From: Promethearchaeota archaeon
Lineage (GTDB): Archaea > Asgardarchaeota > Lokiarchaeia > Sigyniarchaeales > SOKP01
Assembly (NCBI GenBank): GCA_048937405.1
Contig: JBHLNF010000004.1
Location: 128,001 to 192,000, forward strand
Direction: 5' to 3'
DNA: 64,000 nucleotides
Shown: positions 56,649-61,048 of the stretch, piece after piece
Numbering within the stretch: position 1 is the first letter of the stretch
Layout: each line of letters starts with the position of its first letter
Made by a program: the position numbers and the translations under genes
Notes under the pieces: model-generated
Databases searched by the model: none
Told to the model about the DNA's origin: nothing
What the model saw: the letters and a program-made list of their open reading frames with translations, nothing else

Positions 56649-58487
56649 TTATAATAAAGATTGAATAAATGTCTTGAAAATATTATAATCATTGATAAAT
56701 TCATAGGAAAGCACTAAGTTAATAATTTTACATTTGTTCAGTGGAAATATATCTTTTAGATAATCAACAATTTTACCACCTTTGAAAAAAGAATCGTCTG
56801 TAATCAAATTAACAGAATCTCCAATTTTCCTAACTTTAGAGTGAAGGATTGTTTCTATCCCCATTTCATCCGACACAATAATGGTAGGCCTTCCTAAGTA
56901 TGGAATAAAATCTAAATTAAAAATTATCACTTGACCTGGAGCATTATTAATGTTTTTGAAAAATTGTTTTAATGAAGTTTGGACAGTCCTAACCTCATTT
57001 TCATTATAATTCTTTTTGATTGGATAAATAAAATAGGCGATTGATTTTTTTGAGGAATATTTGATATCATTATAGACTCGATCAATGATAGGAAAAATAC
57101 TAAAATCAAAACCGAATAATGATAAAAATGCAATTGTAAAATTAAAATCATTAACTAGGAGATTGTTACTTACATTTCCTCCAATTAGTGAGAAATTTCT
57201 AATTTCATTATTGACATCAGAACTGTATATATTTAATAAATAATACTGAGAAAAAACTAATTGTGATTCTGTTTTTGTTCTGATTTCATCAACCATCATA
57301 TAAACAACATTAAAAATATCTTTGCTAATTTTTTCCTTAAGTTCTGGAATATTCAGATTTTCAATAACAGCATGAGCTTTCGCAGGGCTTTCAATTTCAG
57401 CAAGACTGATGATTGCATCCTTAAAAATTTTATAATCTTGCTTTTTATAATCTGTTTTGAGTAATTTCAATATTTTTTCTATGATCAAATTTAGTACAAC
57501 AATTAATTCAGATCTTATATCTTGTTCTTTCAATTTTTTCGCAATATTGAATAAAATCTGTATTTTTTTAATATCACTTTCAATATAACCAATCAACTTT
57601 AGAGCCAATAGTGGATTAGATTCAATAATTTTGCTATATACTTTGAGTAATAAATTCTCCTTTGATGAGGGATCTTGAATTAGATTTCCAATTTTTAATG
57701 CTTGTTCTGGATTAATTACGACATGATCTTGAGCTAAAAATTCTAATATGTGTAGTTTAACATTTGCATCAGTTATATTATTAATGAATTGTAAAGAGGA
57801 CTCAATATTTTTAATACCGTATGCTCTAATCAAACTATAATATAAGTCAGTTTGATCTTTTTTTTTAGACAGCATTAATGCTAATTCTAAAGCACGTGAG
57901 AGATTGTTAACAGAAAGATATCCTTTTGCTAGATTTTCTAAATATTTATCGATTTCTTCCAAAAGTTTTGAAATTTTTGACCCTGTTGCTTGTAGTGAAT
58001 TATAATCTTCTTTTAATTTTTTCAATTGTTGTTCTGCTTTTTTTATTACATCCTTCTTCATATCTATAATATAATCATCTGGATTAAACAAATCTGAAAT
58101 CTTTTTTTCAAGGAATGAATAATTCTCTAATATTTTTTTAAATTTTCTTTCTTGAATTTCATCTCTTACTTTCTGTACTTTTACAGTATATTCTGTAATC
58201 TTTAACCAATGAGCCTTTATAGTTAATTTTCCAGAACCATCAGAATTAGGTTCTAATTTTAACTCAAGATTTTTTGTTTCTCCAGGACCAAACTCGGTAA
58301 TCTCAGTTAATTCGATGGGATTAACATCTATAGTTAAATTTTCACCCTCGAATTCTAATTTAAAGTTTTCCTTTCTATTCGAATAATTTATTGCTTGAAT
58401 TGAAACAATATTATCAATCCCGGGAATCAATAGATTTTGAGGGAATTTTGTAATGTTTAAAGATATAATTTGATTAGCATTTGACAT
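56649..58487 (-). CDS. Hypothetical protein: beta-sandwich N-terminus, helical repeats and alpha/beta C-terminus
   Basis: 612-aa open frame; no family recognised. Confidence 0.65.
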   Translation of the reverse strand: MSNANQIISLNITKFPQNLLIPGIDNIVSIQAINYSNRKENFKLEFEGENLTIDVNPIELTEITEFGPGETKNLELKLEPNSDGSGKLTIKAHWLKITEYTVKVQKVRDEIQERKFKKILENYSFLEKKISDLFNPDDYIIDMKKDVIKKAEQQLKKLKEDYNSLQATGSKISKLLEEIDKYLENLAKGYLSVNNLSRALELALMLSKKKDQTDLYYSLIRAYGIKNIESSLQFINNITDANVKLHILEFLAQDHVVINPEQALKIGNLIQDPSSKENLLLKVYSKIIESNPLLALKLIGYIESDIKKIQILFNIAKKLKEQDIRSELIVVLNLIIEKILKLLKTDYKKQDYKIFKDAIISLAEIESPAKAHAVIENLNIPELKEKISKDIFNVVYMMVDEIRTKTESQLVFSQYYLLNIYSSDVNNEIRNFSLIGGNVSNNLLVNDFNFTIAFLSLFGFDFSIFPIIDRVYNDIKYSSKKSIAYFIYPIKKNYNENEVRTVQTSLKQFFKNINNAPGQVIIFNLDFIPYLGRPTIIVSDEMGIETILHSKVRKIGDSVNLITDDSFFKGGKIVDYLKDIFPLNKCKIINLVLSYEFINDYNIFKTFIQSLL

Positions 58488-58614
58488 AATTCAATTATTT
58501 TTTTACTCTCTTTAATAATACTAAATCAGAATTTCTCATCATTTTTTAGGTTTAATAATTAACAATTCTTAAATTTTTTATTGTTAGATCCAAATTATAT
58601 TAAAAACAGCTCTT

Positions 58615-59382
58615 TTATTTACCCATTCGGCGATCTCTAGCAATAAAGTCCTTAAGATCCTCAACAACCATTTCTTTATTATAGTCCGGCCAAAATTCTT
58701 TTCGGAATTTAAATTCTGCATAAGAAGCATCCCATAACAAGAATCCTGAGATTCTAGCTCCATCATTCATGCCAGTTCTAATAATATAATCTAAAGGAGG
58801 AAAGTCTTTTGAATAGAGGTGTGATTCAATTAAATCTTTATTAACCTGTTCTGGTTTAATTCCATTACTCACAATTTCCTTCACAGCATCAACAATTTCT
58901 TCATGACCATCATACATAACGCAAAGATTAATGAAATTTTGGTCGTTATCTTTAGTAAGCTCCATTAAATCTTGAAATTTCTCCTTAACATCATTTGGTA
59001 ACATTGAAATCTTTCCAATAATATTAAATTTAACTTTTTCCTCTTTAACGATTGATTCATTTATAATGGTATCGATAGCTTTGATCATTAACTTATAAAT
59101 ATACTCAATTTCTACAGGTTTACGTTTCCTAACATTCTCTAATGATAATATATATAAACTCAAATAATGAATTCCCGCATCAAAAAAATCGAATAATCGC
59201 TTTTTAAGGTTTTCGTAGCCAATTAAATGCCCTAAATTGATTTCGAGATTCCTCTTCTTGGCCCATCTTCTGTTAATGTCTAGAAGTGGAAATCTCTTCT
59301 AAGTACCATCAATGATGAGGCCAATATGTTTGGGTAACCTTTCTTTTTCTCTTAATTTAAGTTCTTCTAGAATAGTTTGCAT
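58615..59382 (-). CDS. uppS: cis-prenyltransferase (UppS family); two exons, 59304-59382 and 58615-59273; 245 aa after splicing
   Basis: PKHIGLIIDG|NRRWAK, GH..G, LY..S.EN..R, YDG.EEI, LDYIIRTG, RISGFLLW..SYAE, WP and terminal RRMGK. The ORF track captures only the last 182 aa. Confidence 0.93.
59274..59303 (-). other. 30-nt putative BHB intron in uppS mRNA (CUUAGAAGAGAUUUCCACUUCUAGACAUUA)
   Basis: Interrupts the Asn codon of DGNRRW, contains an in-frame UAG, and its ends fall at the predicted BHB cleavage positions. Confidence 0.85.
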
Positions 59383-59797
59383 GAAGTTTTAAAAAAAAAT
59401 TTTACTTTCAATATTAATATGAATATTAAAGGTATTAAATTTTTCTTAAAATTTAAAAATAGCTATATTATTCAAATTTATATTGGATTTTAGTTTTTAA
59501 TTTGTAGAATGATACTTTTCAAGCTTAAATTACTCTTCAAAATAAACTTTTACTTTTTCTTACAGTCTTTTACCGATAGTAAGAATTTGAGTAATTCAAA
59601 CTTCTTACCTTTATTTAAACTGAAATTATATAAAGAAATTCTTATATATAAAATTAAAATAGTATTTTGATAATCAATATAAAAAATTATAAAATCGAAA
59701 AAAAAAGAAATTTGGGATTAAAATTTCCTAATACTACTTAACATGTAATTGACATCACCTTTCAAAATACTGTTAGTATTAACCTAAAATCCTCTAT

Positions 59798-61048
59798 TTA
59801 TTCTAAATTATTATCATCCTGATTGGTGGAGGAATAAATATAAATGCCATCAGTCTTGATATCCTCTGCAATATTCCCTATAATAATATTATAGTTAGCT
59901 TGTGAATTTAAATAAATTCCATAACCATCTCCAATAGGATAAATCTGCTGTATCAAGTTTCCATATATAGTATTATTATTAGTATTTAAATAAATCCCAT
60001 AAGCATCAGAAATATCAGAATAAATGTTAATGATCTTATTACCACTAATCACACTAAAATTTCCAGTAAATATAAAAATCCCATATGTTTCTGATAAATT
60101 AGAATAAATGTTAGTAATTGTATTGCTATTTATAGTATTGAATTCAGAATTATAGCTCATAATCCCATAGCTTCCATTATATCCAAAAATATCATGAATA
60201 ATATTATTACTTAGCGTATTGTTATTTGCATAAGCCAATCCAATTCCTTCAACTAAATCAGAAATAGAATAAAGACCATCAATTATATTATCACTTAACG
60301 TATTAAAATTTGATAAGTACAAATGAATCGCTAATTGGGGGCCTACTCCAATCTGATTTTTGATGATATTTCCATTTAGCGTATTAAAATTGGTATGACT
60401 CAATGTAATACCAGCATAATACATTGATACTATCAAATTATCAAGAATGTGACAAGAATCACTATTTTCTCTTAAAGAAATCCCTATATTCAAATCAGAA
60501 AGGTAACAGTTTTGTATCCAGACATTAGAAGAATTAACTTTAATTCCAAAACCTATCTCTGCACCATTAATCTGAATATTTTTAATATAGACAGGATTAT
60601 CTTTTATATCAGCAATATATATTGCATAATCTAAATCAGATAAAAAATCAGTTGTATCTATTTTTAGATCTTGAATAGTGCACGTTTCAACATTTGTTAT
60701 TCTGAATGCTGTTCTATTACCACCACAATCGACCGTAATGGAACCATTCCCTTGAATAGTGTAAGCACCTCCTTGATCAATATCGATTGTAGCGTTAATA
60801 GTAATATCTTCAGTTATTACAATTATACCTGAGCCAGAACTAATTAAATTAATAGCATTTTGTACTTCTGCACTTGTATTACAATAATAACCAGGAGCAT
60901 CTTCACCATCTAATCCGTCTTGCCCAGGAGGACCTTGATTACCATCTCCAAATAAATCACTAATAAACATAAATGATCCTAGACCAAGTCCCGCTGTTCC
61001 AATAATAATTCCAATAATTCCTATTAATAAACCTTTGTTTTCACCCAT
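59798..61048 (-). CDS. Membrane-anchored right-handed beta-helix (NosD/CASH-like) protein with a short collagen-like stalk
   Basis: N-terminal TM, GNQGPPGQDGLDGED and repeated GIxLxxxNxNTIxxNxI. Confidence 0.85.
   Translation of the reverse strand: MGENKGLLIGIIGIIIGTAGLGLGSFMFISDLFGDGNQGPPGQDGLDGEDAPGYYCNTSAEVQNAINLISSGSGIIVITEDITINATIDIDQGGAYTIQGNGSITVDCGGNRTAFRITNVETCTIQDLKIDTTDFLSDLDYAIYIADIKDNPVYIKNIQINGAEIGFGIKVNSSNVWIQNCYLSDLNIGISLRENSDSCHILDNLIVSMYYAGITLSHTNFNTLNGNIIKNQIGVGPQLAIHLYLSNFNTLSDNIIDGLYSISDLVEGIGLAYANNNTLSNNIIHDIFGYNGSYGIMSYNSEFNTINSNTITNIYSNLSETYGIFIFTGNFSVISGNKIINIYSDISDAYGIYLNTNNNTIYGNLIQQIYPIGDGYGIYLNSQANYNIIIGNIAEDIKTDGIYIYSSTNQDDNNLE

What the first reader, a model, noticed from the sequence alone, without database searches (positions are those of the whole stretch)
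59240..59330. tRNA-type (bulge-helix-bulge) intron inside the catalytic motif of a protein-coding gene, uppS
Seen: the minus strand reads ATT GAT GGT A[CTTAGAAGAGATTTCCACTTCTAGACATTA]AC AGA AGA TGG. Removing the 30 nt (59274-59303) restores D-G-N-R-R-W, the conserved cis-prenyltransferase P-loop. Unspliced, an in-frame UAG ends translation after 27 aa. The RNA folds as an intron stem UUAGAAG/CUUCUAG, a 3-nt bulge UA^C, a central 4-nt helix AUGG/ACAU (3 pairs plus one G-A mismatch), a 3-nt bulge UA^A, and an exon-exon stem (UUG/CAG, CAUC/GAUG, UUGGCC/GGCCAA). Established: archaeal splicing endonuclease EndA cuts after the second nucleotide of each bulge, and both such positions coincide with the boundaries that repair the motif. 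mRNA BHB introns are known in few cases, classically crenarchaeal cbf5. Inference: this Asgard archaeon splices mRNA with EndA/RtcB, so such genes are mis-annotated as truncated or pseudogenes. The intron could also be an on/off switch for glycosyl-carrier lipid synthesis, conceptually like non-spliceosomal HAC1/XBP1 splicing. I cannot confirm novelty without a literature search.
Basis: partly seen in the sequence, partly recalled or inferred. Interest (0 to 1): 0.95.

Follow-up and report, generated by a model that had tools for sequence, protein, structure and literature searches.

The report
tRNA-type mini-intron splitting Asgard uppS
The only gene for the glycan-carrier-lipid enzyme (uppS) of this Asgard (Lokiarchaeia) archaeon is broken inside its catalytic loop by a 30-base insert. 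The insert has the shape and evolutionary behaviour of a tRNA-type intron cut from the messenger RNA, a mechanism published for only one archaeal protein gene (cbf5).

Summary
On the minus strand, 59303..59274 is a 30-nt insert with an in-frame TAG in the genome's single cis-prenyltransferase gene. Removing it restores LPKHIGLIIDG|NRRWA.

- I found 16 distinct alleles carrying an insert at this codon (10 of 49 congeneric genomes plus metagenome contigs). All other relatives lack it precisely.
- One insert is 31 nt (a frameshift). In-frame stops differ (TAG, TAA, TGA), and one allele has none.
- The bulge-helix-bulge pairing holds in 90% of cells, against 35-54% for slid controls, with compensatory changes in all helices.
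- Synonymous codons keep an exon-exon helix only in insert-bearing alleles (-13.0 vs -5.4 kcal/mol).
- Exon 1 is under purifying selection (pN/pS 0.12-0.26).
- The genome encodes two EndA paralogues and RtcB.

The motif is relaxed: the central helix has 2-4 pairs and is not the minimum-energy fold.

The same genome has similar 29-31-nt inserts in mvk, pfk, rnhB and an AMP-phosphorylase-like gene. Earlier notes of this scan report such introns on other DNA, including Asgard. The searchable literature confirms splicing of a coding sequence only for cbf5 (other cases only predicted), plus a Haloferax case I did not read.

There is no evidence for an on/off switch. This is a new member of a known kind.

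The parts
59304..59382 (-). uppS exon 1: ATG to the first base (A) of the Asn codon; encodes MQTILEELKLREKERLPKHIGLIIDG plus A of AAC
   Evidence: Conserved at the protein level with intron-less orthologues. pN/pS is 0.26 overall and 0.12 for the last 12 codons.
59274..59303 (-). 30-nt BHB-type intron, CUUAGAAGAGAUUUCCACUUCUAGACAUUA, with an in-frame UAG at 59301-59299
   Evidence: Orthologous inserts in 16 alleles. Absent at exactly this point in 39 congeneric species and in all other-family relatives searched.
58615..59273 (-). uppS exon 2: AC of the Asn codon, 218 codons (RRWAKK...RRMGK) and the TAA stop
   Evidence: Pfam PF01255 Prenyltransf, E = 6.6e-54, profile positions 6-219 of 219. 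It is the only PF01255 match in the genome.
59296..59302 (-). 5' arm of the intron helix h' (UUAGAAG)
   Evidence: Pairs with 59280-59286. Across 16 alleles 96.9% of cells are paired, and 3 pairs show compensatory changes.
59280..59286 (-). 3' arm of the intron helix h' (CUUCUAG)
59306..59309 (-). Exon strand of the central helix H (AUGG)
   Evidence: Pairs with ACAU at 59276-59279 (3 pairs plus a G-A mismatch). The two central pairs hold in 16 of 16 alleles, with one compensatory U-A to C-G change.
59276..59279 (-). Intron strand of the central helix H (ACAU)
59303..59305 (-). Bulge 1 (UA^C); predicted 5' cut after 59304
   Evidence: Geometry. The rule of cutting after the second bulge nucleotide comes from the literature (PMC2738675).
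59273..59275 (-). Bulge 2 (UA^A); predicted 3' cut after 59274
   Evidence: As above. Joining 59304 to 59273 gives GGU AAC, i.e. Gly-Asn.
59310..59324 (-). Exon-1 strand of the exon-exon helix h (UUGGCC.CAUC.UUG)
   Evidence: Insert-bearing alleles keep 8.9 of 9 counted pairs; insert-less alleles keep 6.7 of 9.
59258..59272 (-). Exon-2 strand of the exon-exon helix h (CAG..GAUG GGCCAA)
   Evidence: One compensatory U-A to G-C change occurs through synonymous codons (pair 23-64 in A2).

Best explanation
The 30 nt at 59303..59274 (minus strand) are an archaeal bulge-helix-bulge (tRNA-type) intron in the pre-mRNA of uppS, the genome's only cis-prenyltransferase gene. The transcript folds so that exon 1 pairs with exon 2 (helix h). 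The last exon-1 bases AUGG pair with the 3' end of the intron (relaxed central helix H). The intron interior forms a 7-8-bp hairpin (h'). The heteromeric splicing endonuclease EndA cuts after the second nucleotide of each 3-nt bulge, and RtcB joins the exons, creating the Asn codon A|AC and the catalytic loop D-G-N-R-R-W. Unspliced mRNA gives only a 27-aa peptide. What is shown: the structure, its covariation, the precise presence/absence pattern, selection on both exons, and the presence of the enzymes. What is inferred: the cleavage and ligation themselves and the exact cut sites.
For: (1) Searches give 16 distinct alleles with an insert at the same codon position. These comprise 10 of 49 congeneric species with uppS, plus metagenome contigs.
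(2) One insert (L037) is 31 nt, so exon 2 lies in another frame. In-frame stops are TAG, TAA or TGA, at different codons, and G044 has none. This excludes recoding of one stop codon.
(3) All 16 alleles give uninterrupted ...DGNRRWA when cut at the BHB-predicted sites (12 translated; the other four read from the alignment).
(4) In one search, 90.3% of BHB cells are paired against 35-54% in slid controls. Five pairs have changes on both sides (0 of 500 shuffles), spread over h, H and h'. The two central H pairs hold in 16 of 16 alleles.
(5) In one search the exon-exon duplex averages -13.0 kcal/mol in insert-bearing alleles and -5.4 in insert-less ones, maintained by synonymous codon choice.
(6) In one search, pN/pS is 0.26 for exon 1 (0.12 near the junction) and 0.16 for exon 2, like the intron-less orthologues (0.21).
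(7) One search finds no second PF01255 gene in a genome scored 100% complete.
(8) Searches find two EndA paralogues, each with N-terminal and catalytic domains, and one RtcB. PMC5829648 reports that Asgard archaea have the broad-specificity (alpha-beta)2 EndA.
(9) Searches show the same genome has 29-31-nt inserts of the same design in the conserved motifs of pfk, rnhB, an AMP-phosphorylase-like gene and mvk. The mvk insert is present in all 13 genus genomes sampled, apparently with compensatory stem changes (by eye, not counted).
(10) One search shows a patchy gain/loss pattern, as published for the cbf5 intron (PMC2738675).
Against: No spliced-form protein or contig of an insert-bearing species was found. 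The motif is not canonical: H has 4 of 4 pairs in only one allele, 3 of 4 in most, and 2 of 4 in four alleles (G010, G058, L037, L071). In the nearest-neighbour model the BHB register lies 7-18 kcal/mol above the minimum-energy fold. The G000 MFE uses another register. The G010 allele has a weak exon helix (-4.7 kcal/mol). The cut sites are ambiguous by 1-2 nt from sequence alone.
Confidence: 0.85

Rival explanations
1. The insert is translated: the stop is read through or recoded (for example as pyrrolysine), giving an enzyme with a 10-residue loop insertion (DGT?KRFPLLDINRRW).
For: The insert is in phase in 15 of 16 alleles. One species (G044/L035) has TGG instead of TAG and is publicly annotated as a 255-aa protein. 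The insert's end happens to recreate D-I-N-R-R-W in G000.
Against: Three different stop codons occur, at two codon positions. One allele is 31 nt and shifts the frame. Substitutions preserve RNA pairing, not peptide sequence. The insert would sit inside the catalytic Asp-Gly-Asn loop. Most congeners lack it precisely.
Confidence: 0.02
2. The gene is a decaying pseudogene, or only a truncated product from an internal start is made, and the hairpin is a neutral DNA insertion (for example a footprint with a TA duplication).
For: The insert has an in-frame stop. G000 has TA at both ends and an inverted repeat. Annotators-231-aa products that start inside the insert.
Against: It is the only PF01255 gene in the genome. 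Exon 1 is under purifying selection as strong as exon 2. The insert has persisted through about 25% protein divergence, with compensatory changes. Exon codons co-adapt to pair across it. The TA repeat is absent in other alleles. A truncated product would lack the Asp of DGN, which is needed for catalysis (my knowledge of E. coli UPPS Asp26).
Confidence: 0.04
3. Ribosomes bypass the 30 nt (translational hopping, as in T4 gene 60 or the yeast mitochondrial byp elements).
For: The gap is short, a stop codon follows the last sense codons, and a hairpin sits at the start of the gap, which superficially resembles gene 60.
Against: No allele has matching take-off and landing codons: GGN is followed by ACU, AUU or AAU, while the codons before AAC are AUU, AAA, AUA, GAA, AAG, GUA or UAG. 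The conserved features are exon-intron and exon-exon pairings, which bypassing does not need. The same design occurs at other genes, next to a heavily intron-laden tRNA set.
Confidence: 0.03
4. The insert is removed at the RNA level, but by a nuclease/ligase pair other than EndA/RtcB, or at cut sites other than the BHB rule predicts.
For: The central helix is weak (2-3 pairs in most alleles). The BHB register is not the MFE. The loop GAUUUCC is unusually conserved for an unpaired region and could be a protein-binding site.
Against: The geometry (3-nt bulge, 4 positions, 3-nt bulge) is kept in all 16 alleles, and the rule-predicted cuts give the right codon in all of them. Relaxed motifs are the norm for the confirmed cbf5 introns, which are cut by heteromeric EndA (PMC2738675). 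No other candidate machinery is known.
Confidence: 0.05

Closest known systems
cbf5 (pseudouridine synthase) pre-mRNA intron of Crenarchaeota (Watanabe 2002; Yoshinari 2006; Yokobori 2009, PMC2738675)
   Same: Both are short BHB-type introns in a protein-coding sequence. Both sit in phase 1 at or next to the catalytic residue codon (cbf5: within the catalytic Asp codon; here: the Asn codon right after the catalytic Asp-Gly). Both mostly have an unconventional (relaxed) BHB and are linked to a hetero-oligomeric EndA. Both show lineage-specific loss and cause gene mis-prediction.
   Different: The gene (uppS) and the phylum (Asgard/Lokiarchaeia rather than Crenarchaeota) differ. Splicing is not yet shown experimentally here. 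The insert is polymorphic among species of one genus. The genome holds at least four further genes with inserts of the same design, whereas PMC2738675 states that cbf5 was the only confirmed case.
Archaeal tRNA introns at non-canonical positions, and the heavily interrupted tRNA genes of Asgard archaea (bioRxiv 10.64898/2026.10.13.758758)
   Same: The recognition motif, the size range (about 30 nt), the presumed enzymes and the pattern of repeated gain and loss are the same.
   Different: The host RNA is an mRNA. [quoted passage not shown] That preprint does not mention mRNA introns.
HAC1/XBP1 unconventional mRNA splicing (Ire1 plus tRNA ligase/RtcB)
   Same: Both are non-spliceosomal: an endonuclease cuts at two stem-loop sites in an mRNA and a tRNA-type ligase joins the exons.
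   Different: The endonuclease (Ire1 kinase-RNase) and the motif differ. HAC1/XBP1 splicing is stress-regulated, and no sign of regulation was found here. This is an analogy only.
BHB intron in the 5' UTR of a Haloferax volcanii mRNA (as described in note e1-938019; probably PMC7714728, which I listed but did not read)
   Same: An EndA substrate within an mRNA.
   Different: It lies in an untranslated region, not inside a coding sequence or catalytic motif.

Membership tests
Archaeal BHB (EndA-dependent) intron, canonical hBHBh' | [quoted passage not shown] | tested here: not met
   The bulges are 3 nt in all 16 alleles. H is 4 of 4 only in L038, 3 of 4 in most alleles including G000 (G-A mismatch), and 2 of 4 in G010, G058, L037 and L071.
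Archaeal BHB intron, relaxed motif as accepted by (alpha-beta)2 EndA | Bulge-helix-bulge geometry with an imperfect central helix, flanked by exon (h) and intron (h') helices | tested here: met
   The central two H pairs hold in 16 of 16 alleles. h' is 96.9% paired and the inner h 100%. Overall 90.3% of cells are paired against 35-54% in slid controls, and 5 pairs are compensatory.
Archaeal BHB intron | Cutting after the second nucleotide of each bulge yields the functional mature RNA | tested here: met
   In all 16 alleles the predicted cuts create GGN-AAY and an open 245-codon frame with DGNRRW (12 translated; the other four read from the alignment).
Archaeal BHB intron | The host encodes the splicing endonuclease and the RtcB ligase | tested here: met
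   Two PF01974/PF02778 proteins of 197 and 200 aa and one RtcB (E = 1.8e-169). The L1 specificity loop was not examined.
Archaeal BHB intron | Spliced RNA and/or excised circular intron observed | not testable with these tools
No spliced-form contig or protein was found in the databases.
cbf5-type pre-mRNA intron | Interrupts a protein-coding frame whose intact form is needed, with presence/absence among relatives | tested here: met
   Single-copy gene. pN/pS 0.12-0.26. Ten of 49 congeners carry it, and the gene tree needs at least 5 changes.
Translational bypass element (T4 gene 60 / byp) | Matching take-off and landing codons flanking the gap | tested here: not met
   No allele has matching codons.
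Stop-codon recoding (Pyl/Sec or read-through) | One specific stop codon at a fixed position, with the frame kept | tested here: not met
   The stops are TAG, TAA or TGA, or there is none, at differing codons. One allele is 31 nt.
Group I/II self-splicing intron, or any Rfam family | Ribozyme core detectable | tested here: not met
   The insert is only 30 nt. There are no Rfam matches with E up to 1 in 58400-59900.
cis-prenyltransferase (UppS, PF01255) | Prenyltransf domain with the N-terminal DGNRRW loop | tested here: met
   Exon 2 covers profile positions 6-219. The loop is complete only after removal of the insert.

The most novel reading that the evidence does not exclude
This uppS intron is one member of a sizeable set of about 30-nt EndA/RtcB-spliced micro-introns that sit inside catalytic motifs of many housekeeping protein genes of Lokiarchaeia. 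They are gained and lost on the time-scale of species within a genus. If so, the closest archaeal relatives of eukaryotes routinely splice protein-coding messages, and their gene catalogues are systematically mis-annotated. A further, weaker step is that splicing efficiency gates the expression of such genes.
Probability: 0.55. Interest if true: 0.88.

Novelty: new member of a known kind. Interest (0 to 1): 0.74.

Why it matters
In the papers I could search, splicing of an archaeal protein-coding sequence by the tRNA endonuclease has been confirmed for one gene only, cbf5 in Crenarchaeota. An uppS intron in an Asgard archaeon, alongside at least four more such genes in the same genome, would extend mRNA splicing to the archaeal lineage nearest to eukaryotes. 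That bears on debates about how interrupted genes and RNA-level repair arose.

It also has a practical consequence. Public annotations of these genomes call truncated or read-through UppS proteins, so metabolic reconstructions of lipid-carrier and isoprenoid synthesis, and pseudogene counts for Asgard MAGs, are biased.

The polymorphic uppS intron offers a natural system for studying intron gain and loss, because sister species with and without it exist. The system is testable with one RT-PCR.

Tried and rejected

2. Searching for a spliced form in the databases. A degenerate junction pattern over JGI metagenome contigs found six more unspliced alleles and one insert-less contig (L075). L075 turned out to belong to an intron-less species (87.5% identical to G004's allele), so it is not a transcript. 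Among the top 120 protein hits, none of full length matched an insert-bearing species at 93% identity or more.

3. Genome-wide census of BHB introns. I combined a BHB pattern, an ORF-restoration test and a hexamer coding score. In this 29% G+C genome the real structure gave 2355 candidates against 2290 for a slid control, so noise dominates. The scans recovered uppS and one plausible new case (C20:10793-10822) but missed pfk, rnhB and mvk, whose hairpins have internal mismatches. No count can be given.

4. A fuzzy sequence search for copies of the intron in the genome found none, so it is not a repeated sequence element.

5. open_frame_aa as a proxy for the mvk intron was misleading. Direct sequence reading showed the insert in all 13 genomes sampled, so I dropped a co-occurrence statistic based on that proxy.

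6. The MFE register UGGU/AUUA is rejected as the conserved structure, because it can form only in the three group-A alleles.

7. Also considered and rejected: an intein (stops, only 10 codons), an assembly artefact (independent genomes with diverged inserts), and an RNA gene on the opposite strand (no Rfam or tRNA hit).

Full report
**Observation.** The minus strand of the window reads ATT GAT GGT A, then 30 nt (CTTAGAAGAGATTTCCACTTCTAGACATTA, 59303..59274), then AC AGA AGA TGG. The frame that starts at ATG 59382 ends at TAG 59301-59299 after 27 residues. Because the insert is 30 nt long, the same frame continues after it as NRRWAKKRNLEINLGH... down to TAA 58617-58615.

Exon 2 alone matches Pfam Prenyltransf (PF01255) at E = 6.6e-54 over profile positions 6-219 of 219. 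Removing the 30 nt creates ...LPKHIGLIIDG-N-RRWA, the cis-prenyltransferase catalytic loop.

The 81-nt region folds better than all 200 dinucleotide shuffles (z = -2.84). Its minimum-energy structure, however, uses the register UGGU/AUUA with a 2x2 internal loop, not two 3-nt bulges.

**Single copy, real gene.** PF01255 finds one match in the window's own genome, which has 4.47 Mb in 29 contigs and is scored 100% complete. There is therefore no intact second uppS. The source names of the closest proteins place the organism in the Promethearchaeota/Lokiarchaeia, i.e. Asgard.

**Comparative evidence.** I searched 54 genomes of the same genus and 16 of other families in the order, and read the junction region of every match directly.
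- Ten of the 49 congeneric species with uppS carry an insert at exactly this position: G000, G053, G044, G003, G009, G014, G016, G006, G010 and G058.
- The other 39 congeners, and all other-family genomes, read GAT GGN AAY CGN/AGR ... without interruption.
- Look-ups of truncated database proteins and one pattern scan of JGI metagenome contigs added six further distinct alleles, giving 16 in all.

Three facts exclude translation of the insert.
- The in-frame stops differ: TAG in most alleles, TAA in G003, L038 and L074, and TGA at another codon in G010.
- G044 has no stop (TGG) and is publicly annotated as a 255-aa protein with the sequence DGTWKRFPLLDINRRW.
- The allele L037 has a 31-nt insert, so its exon 2 is out of frame with exon 1.

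Cutting every allele at the positions predicted by the bulge-helix-bulge rule yields an uninterrupted frame with DGNRRWA (12 alleles translated; the other four read from the alignment).

**Structure and covariation.** I counted the BHB model on the 16-allele alignment A2. The model comprises the exon-exon helix h, a 3-nt bulge, four H positions, a 3-nt bulge and the intron hairpin h'.
- 90.3% of cells form standard pairs, against 35-54% when the 3' partners are slid by 1-3 columns.
- Five pairs have changes on both sides (0 of 500 shuffles reach this), distributed over all helices:
  - U-A to G-C in h, through synonymous Val and Arg codons in G010;
  - U-A to C-G in H, where GAU to GAC in the exon is matched by A to G in the intron;
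  - G-C to A-U twice in h', plus one change at the apical pair.
- The two central H pairs hold in 16 of 16 alleles.
- The outer H pairs alternate: A-U in 7 alleles and G-C in 6. H therefore has 3 pairs in most alleles, 4 in L038, and only 2 in G010, G058, L037 and L071.

This is a relaxed motif. PMC2738675 reports the same for most cbf5 introns, which a hetero-oligomeric EndA cuts. The rival MFE register of G000 can form only in the three group-A alleles, so it is not the conserved structure. As a caveat, the BHB register lies 7-18 kcal/mol above each allele's MFE in the nearest-neighbour model.

**Exon co-adaptation.** Half of a BHB motif is made of exon sequence. Insert-bearing alleles keep 8.9 of the 9 counted h pairs and have a mean exon-exon duplex energy of -13.0 kcal/mol. 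Insert-less alleles keep 6.7 of 9 and average -5.4 kcal/mol. The protein sequence is the same, so the difference lies in synonymous codons (CTC ATC versus TTA ATA; AGA CGA versus CGT CGA). G010 is the exception (-4.7 kcal/mol); it is the sister of the insert-less G020.

**Selection.** Among the insert-bearing alleles, pN/pS is 0.26 for exon 1 (0.12 for its last 12 codons) and 0.16 for exon 2. The insert-less congeners give 0.21. Exon 1 is thus translated as part of a functional protein, which rules out a pseudogene or use of an internal start.

**Phyletic pattern.** On a maximum-likelihood tree of the coding sequence, the insert needs at least 5 gains or losses, 4 of them forced by well-supported branches. 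G010 (with the insert) and G020 (without) are sisters with 100% support. The inserts are clearly homologous in position, length and much of their sequence. The simplest reading is one gain followed by several precise losses, or spread by recombination. This resembles the gain-and-loss history published for cbf5.

**Machinery.** The genome encodes two EndA-family proteins of 197 and 200 aa, each with the N-terminal and catalytic domains, and one RtcB. This fits the (alpha-beta)2 enzyme with broad specificity reported for Asgard archaea (PMC5829648; bioRxiv 10.64898/2026.10.13.758758). ARAGORN finds only 21 tRNA genes, 15 of them with introns. That is consistent with the heavily interrupted tRNA genes described in the preprint.

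**Not a one-off.** Earlier first-reader notes of this scan gave me unverified leads for this genome and for others. I checked four of them in the sequence.
- **pfk:** a 31-nt insert; GGG|DCPGLN is restored; H is GCGG/CCGU, 4 of 4.
- **rnhB:** a 29-nt insert; GIDEAGR|GSVLGP is restored; H is UGGC/GUUA.
- **AMP-phosphorylase-like gene:** a 30-nt insert containing TAG TAA; DKHST|GGVPGNK is restored.
- **mvk:** lies 10 kb from uppS on the same contig, just outside the window; a 31-nt insert; ILFGE|HFVVYG is restored.

The mvk insert is present in all 13 genus genomes I read, apparently with compensatory stem changes (by eye, not counted). Six of those 13 lack the uppS insert. So the uppS intron is polymorphic while the mvk intron looks fixed, and the two are not coupled. 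This gives no support to a pathway-wide switch.

My own attempts at an unbiased genome-wide census failed for lack of specificity in a 29% G+C genome.

**Rivals.** Read-through or recoding, pseudogene decay, translational bypassing, inteins, self-splicing introns, an assembly artefact and an antisense RNA gene were each tested and are disfavoured. The reasons are given under Rival explanations and Tried and rejected.

**Comparison with the known, and novelty.** Full-text searches and the papers read show splicing of an archaeal coding sequence confirmed only for cbf5. PMC2738675 mentions other cases only as predictions, and recent reviews and structural papers still cite only the three cbf5 papers. 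The October 2026 preprint on Asgard tRNA introns does not mention mRNA.

This scan's own earlier notes report similar introns on other DNA: Asgard csp, dnaG and an Fe-S enzyme gene, DPANN EF-2, Nitrososphaeria carB and Bathyarchaeia pcm. They also report the same uppS intron in a related genome. These are AI notes, not publications.

I therefore class the uppS intron as a new member of a known kind: a new gene and a new phylum with the same mechanism. It has high interest because of the lineage and the apparent multiplicity.

**Verdict.** An EndA/RtcB-spliced mRNA intron is the best explanation (confidence 0.85). The regulatory-switch idea is unsupported.

Noticed in passing
L077:1311-1341 (= G000 C17:197213-197243, + strand, about 5 kb beyond the window end): Mevalonate kinase is split by a 31-nt BHB-type insert between ILFGE and HFVVYGLPAIA. 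The H helix is GCG/CGC, and the hairpin has 9 bp with one bulged A and the loop AAUUC. The insert is present in all 13 genus genomes read, apparently with compensatory stem changes (CUU/AAG, CCU/AGG, CCC/GGG; by eye, not counted).
   Followed up: partly
L065:1468-1498 (= G000 C25:149016-149046, +): Phosphofructokinase has a 31-nt insert after MTIKRVGILTGGG. Removal restores GGGDCPGLN, and the central helix GCGG/CCGU pairs 4 of 4. The Pfam match starts only at profile position 11, right after the insert.
   Followed up: partly
L066:1474-1502 (= G000 C25:104583-104611, +): RNase HII has a 29-nt insert (a frameshift) inside GIDEAGR|GSVLGP, with central helix UGGC/GUUA.
   Followed up: partly
L068:1471-1500 (= G000 C28:498456-498485, +): A glycosyl-transferase-3 family gene (AMP-phosphorylase-like) has a 30-nt insert with TAG TAA inside DKHST|GGVPGNK.
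   Followed up: partly
G000 C20:10793-10822 (- strand): My strict BHB+ORF scan found a 30-nt candidate intron (ATTTATACATAAATAATGTATAAAGGCAAA) that joins ...KIAVPMH|NWGKNLTEF. It has a 9-bp hairpin and a 7-bp exon helix. I did not check it against homologues.
   Followed up: no
window 59406-59424 (- strand): A near-palindromic motif, ATTCATATTAATATTGAAA, lies upstream of the uppS start codon. It is conserved across most of the genus although the surrounding intergenic DNA diverges. It is probably the promoter (TATA/BRE) or an operator.
   Followed up: no
16-allele alignment A2, columns 40-47 (window about 59287-59294, - strand): The apical loop GAUUUCC of the intron is more conserved than an unpaired loop needs to be. 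Similar A/U-UUC loops occur in the mvk (AAUUC) and rnhB (ACUUC) inserts. This may reflect common descent or a protein contact.
   Followed up: no
whole genome G000: ARAGORN finds only 21 tRNA genes in a genome scored 100% complete, and 15 of them have predicted introns. Many tRNA genes are probably too interrupted to be recognised.
   Followed up: no
P0001, P0021, P0030, P0031, P0036, P0049, P0002: Public annotations of insert-bearing uppS genes-231-aa proteins that start inside the intron (for example MNRRWA..., MPLLNINRRWA...), or a 255-aa read-through protein. This shows systematic mis-annotation.
   Followed up: yes
window 56649-58487 (-) and 59798-61048 (-): The neighbours of uppS are a 612-aa protein with no family match above threshold (weak Vps5-like hit, E = 6e-4, below the cut-off) and a 416-aa membrane-anchored right-handed beta-helix (NosD-like) protein.
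   Followed up: no
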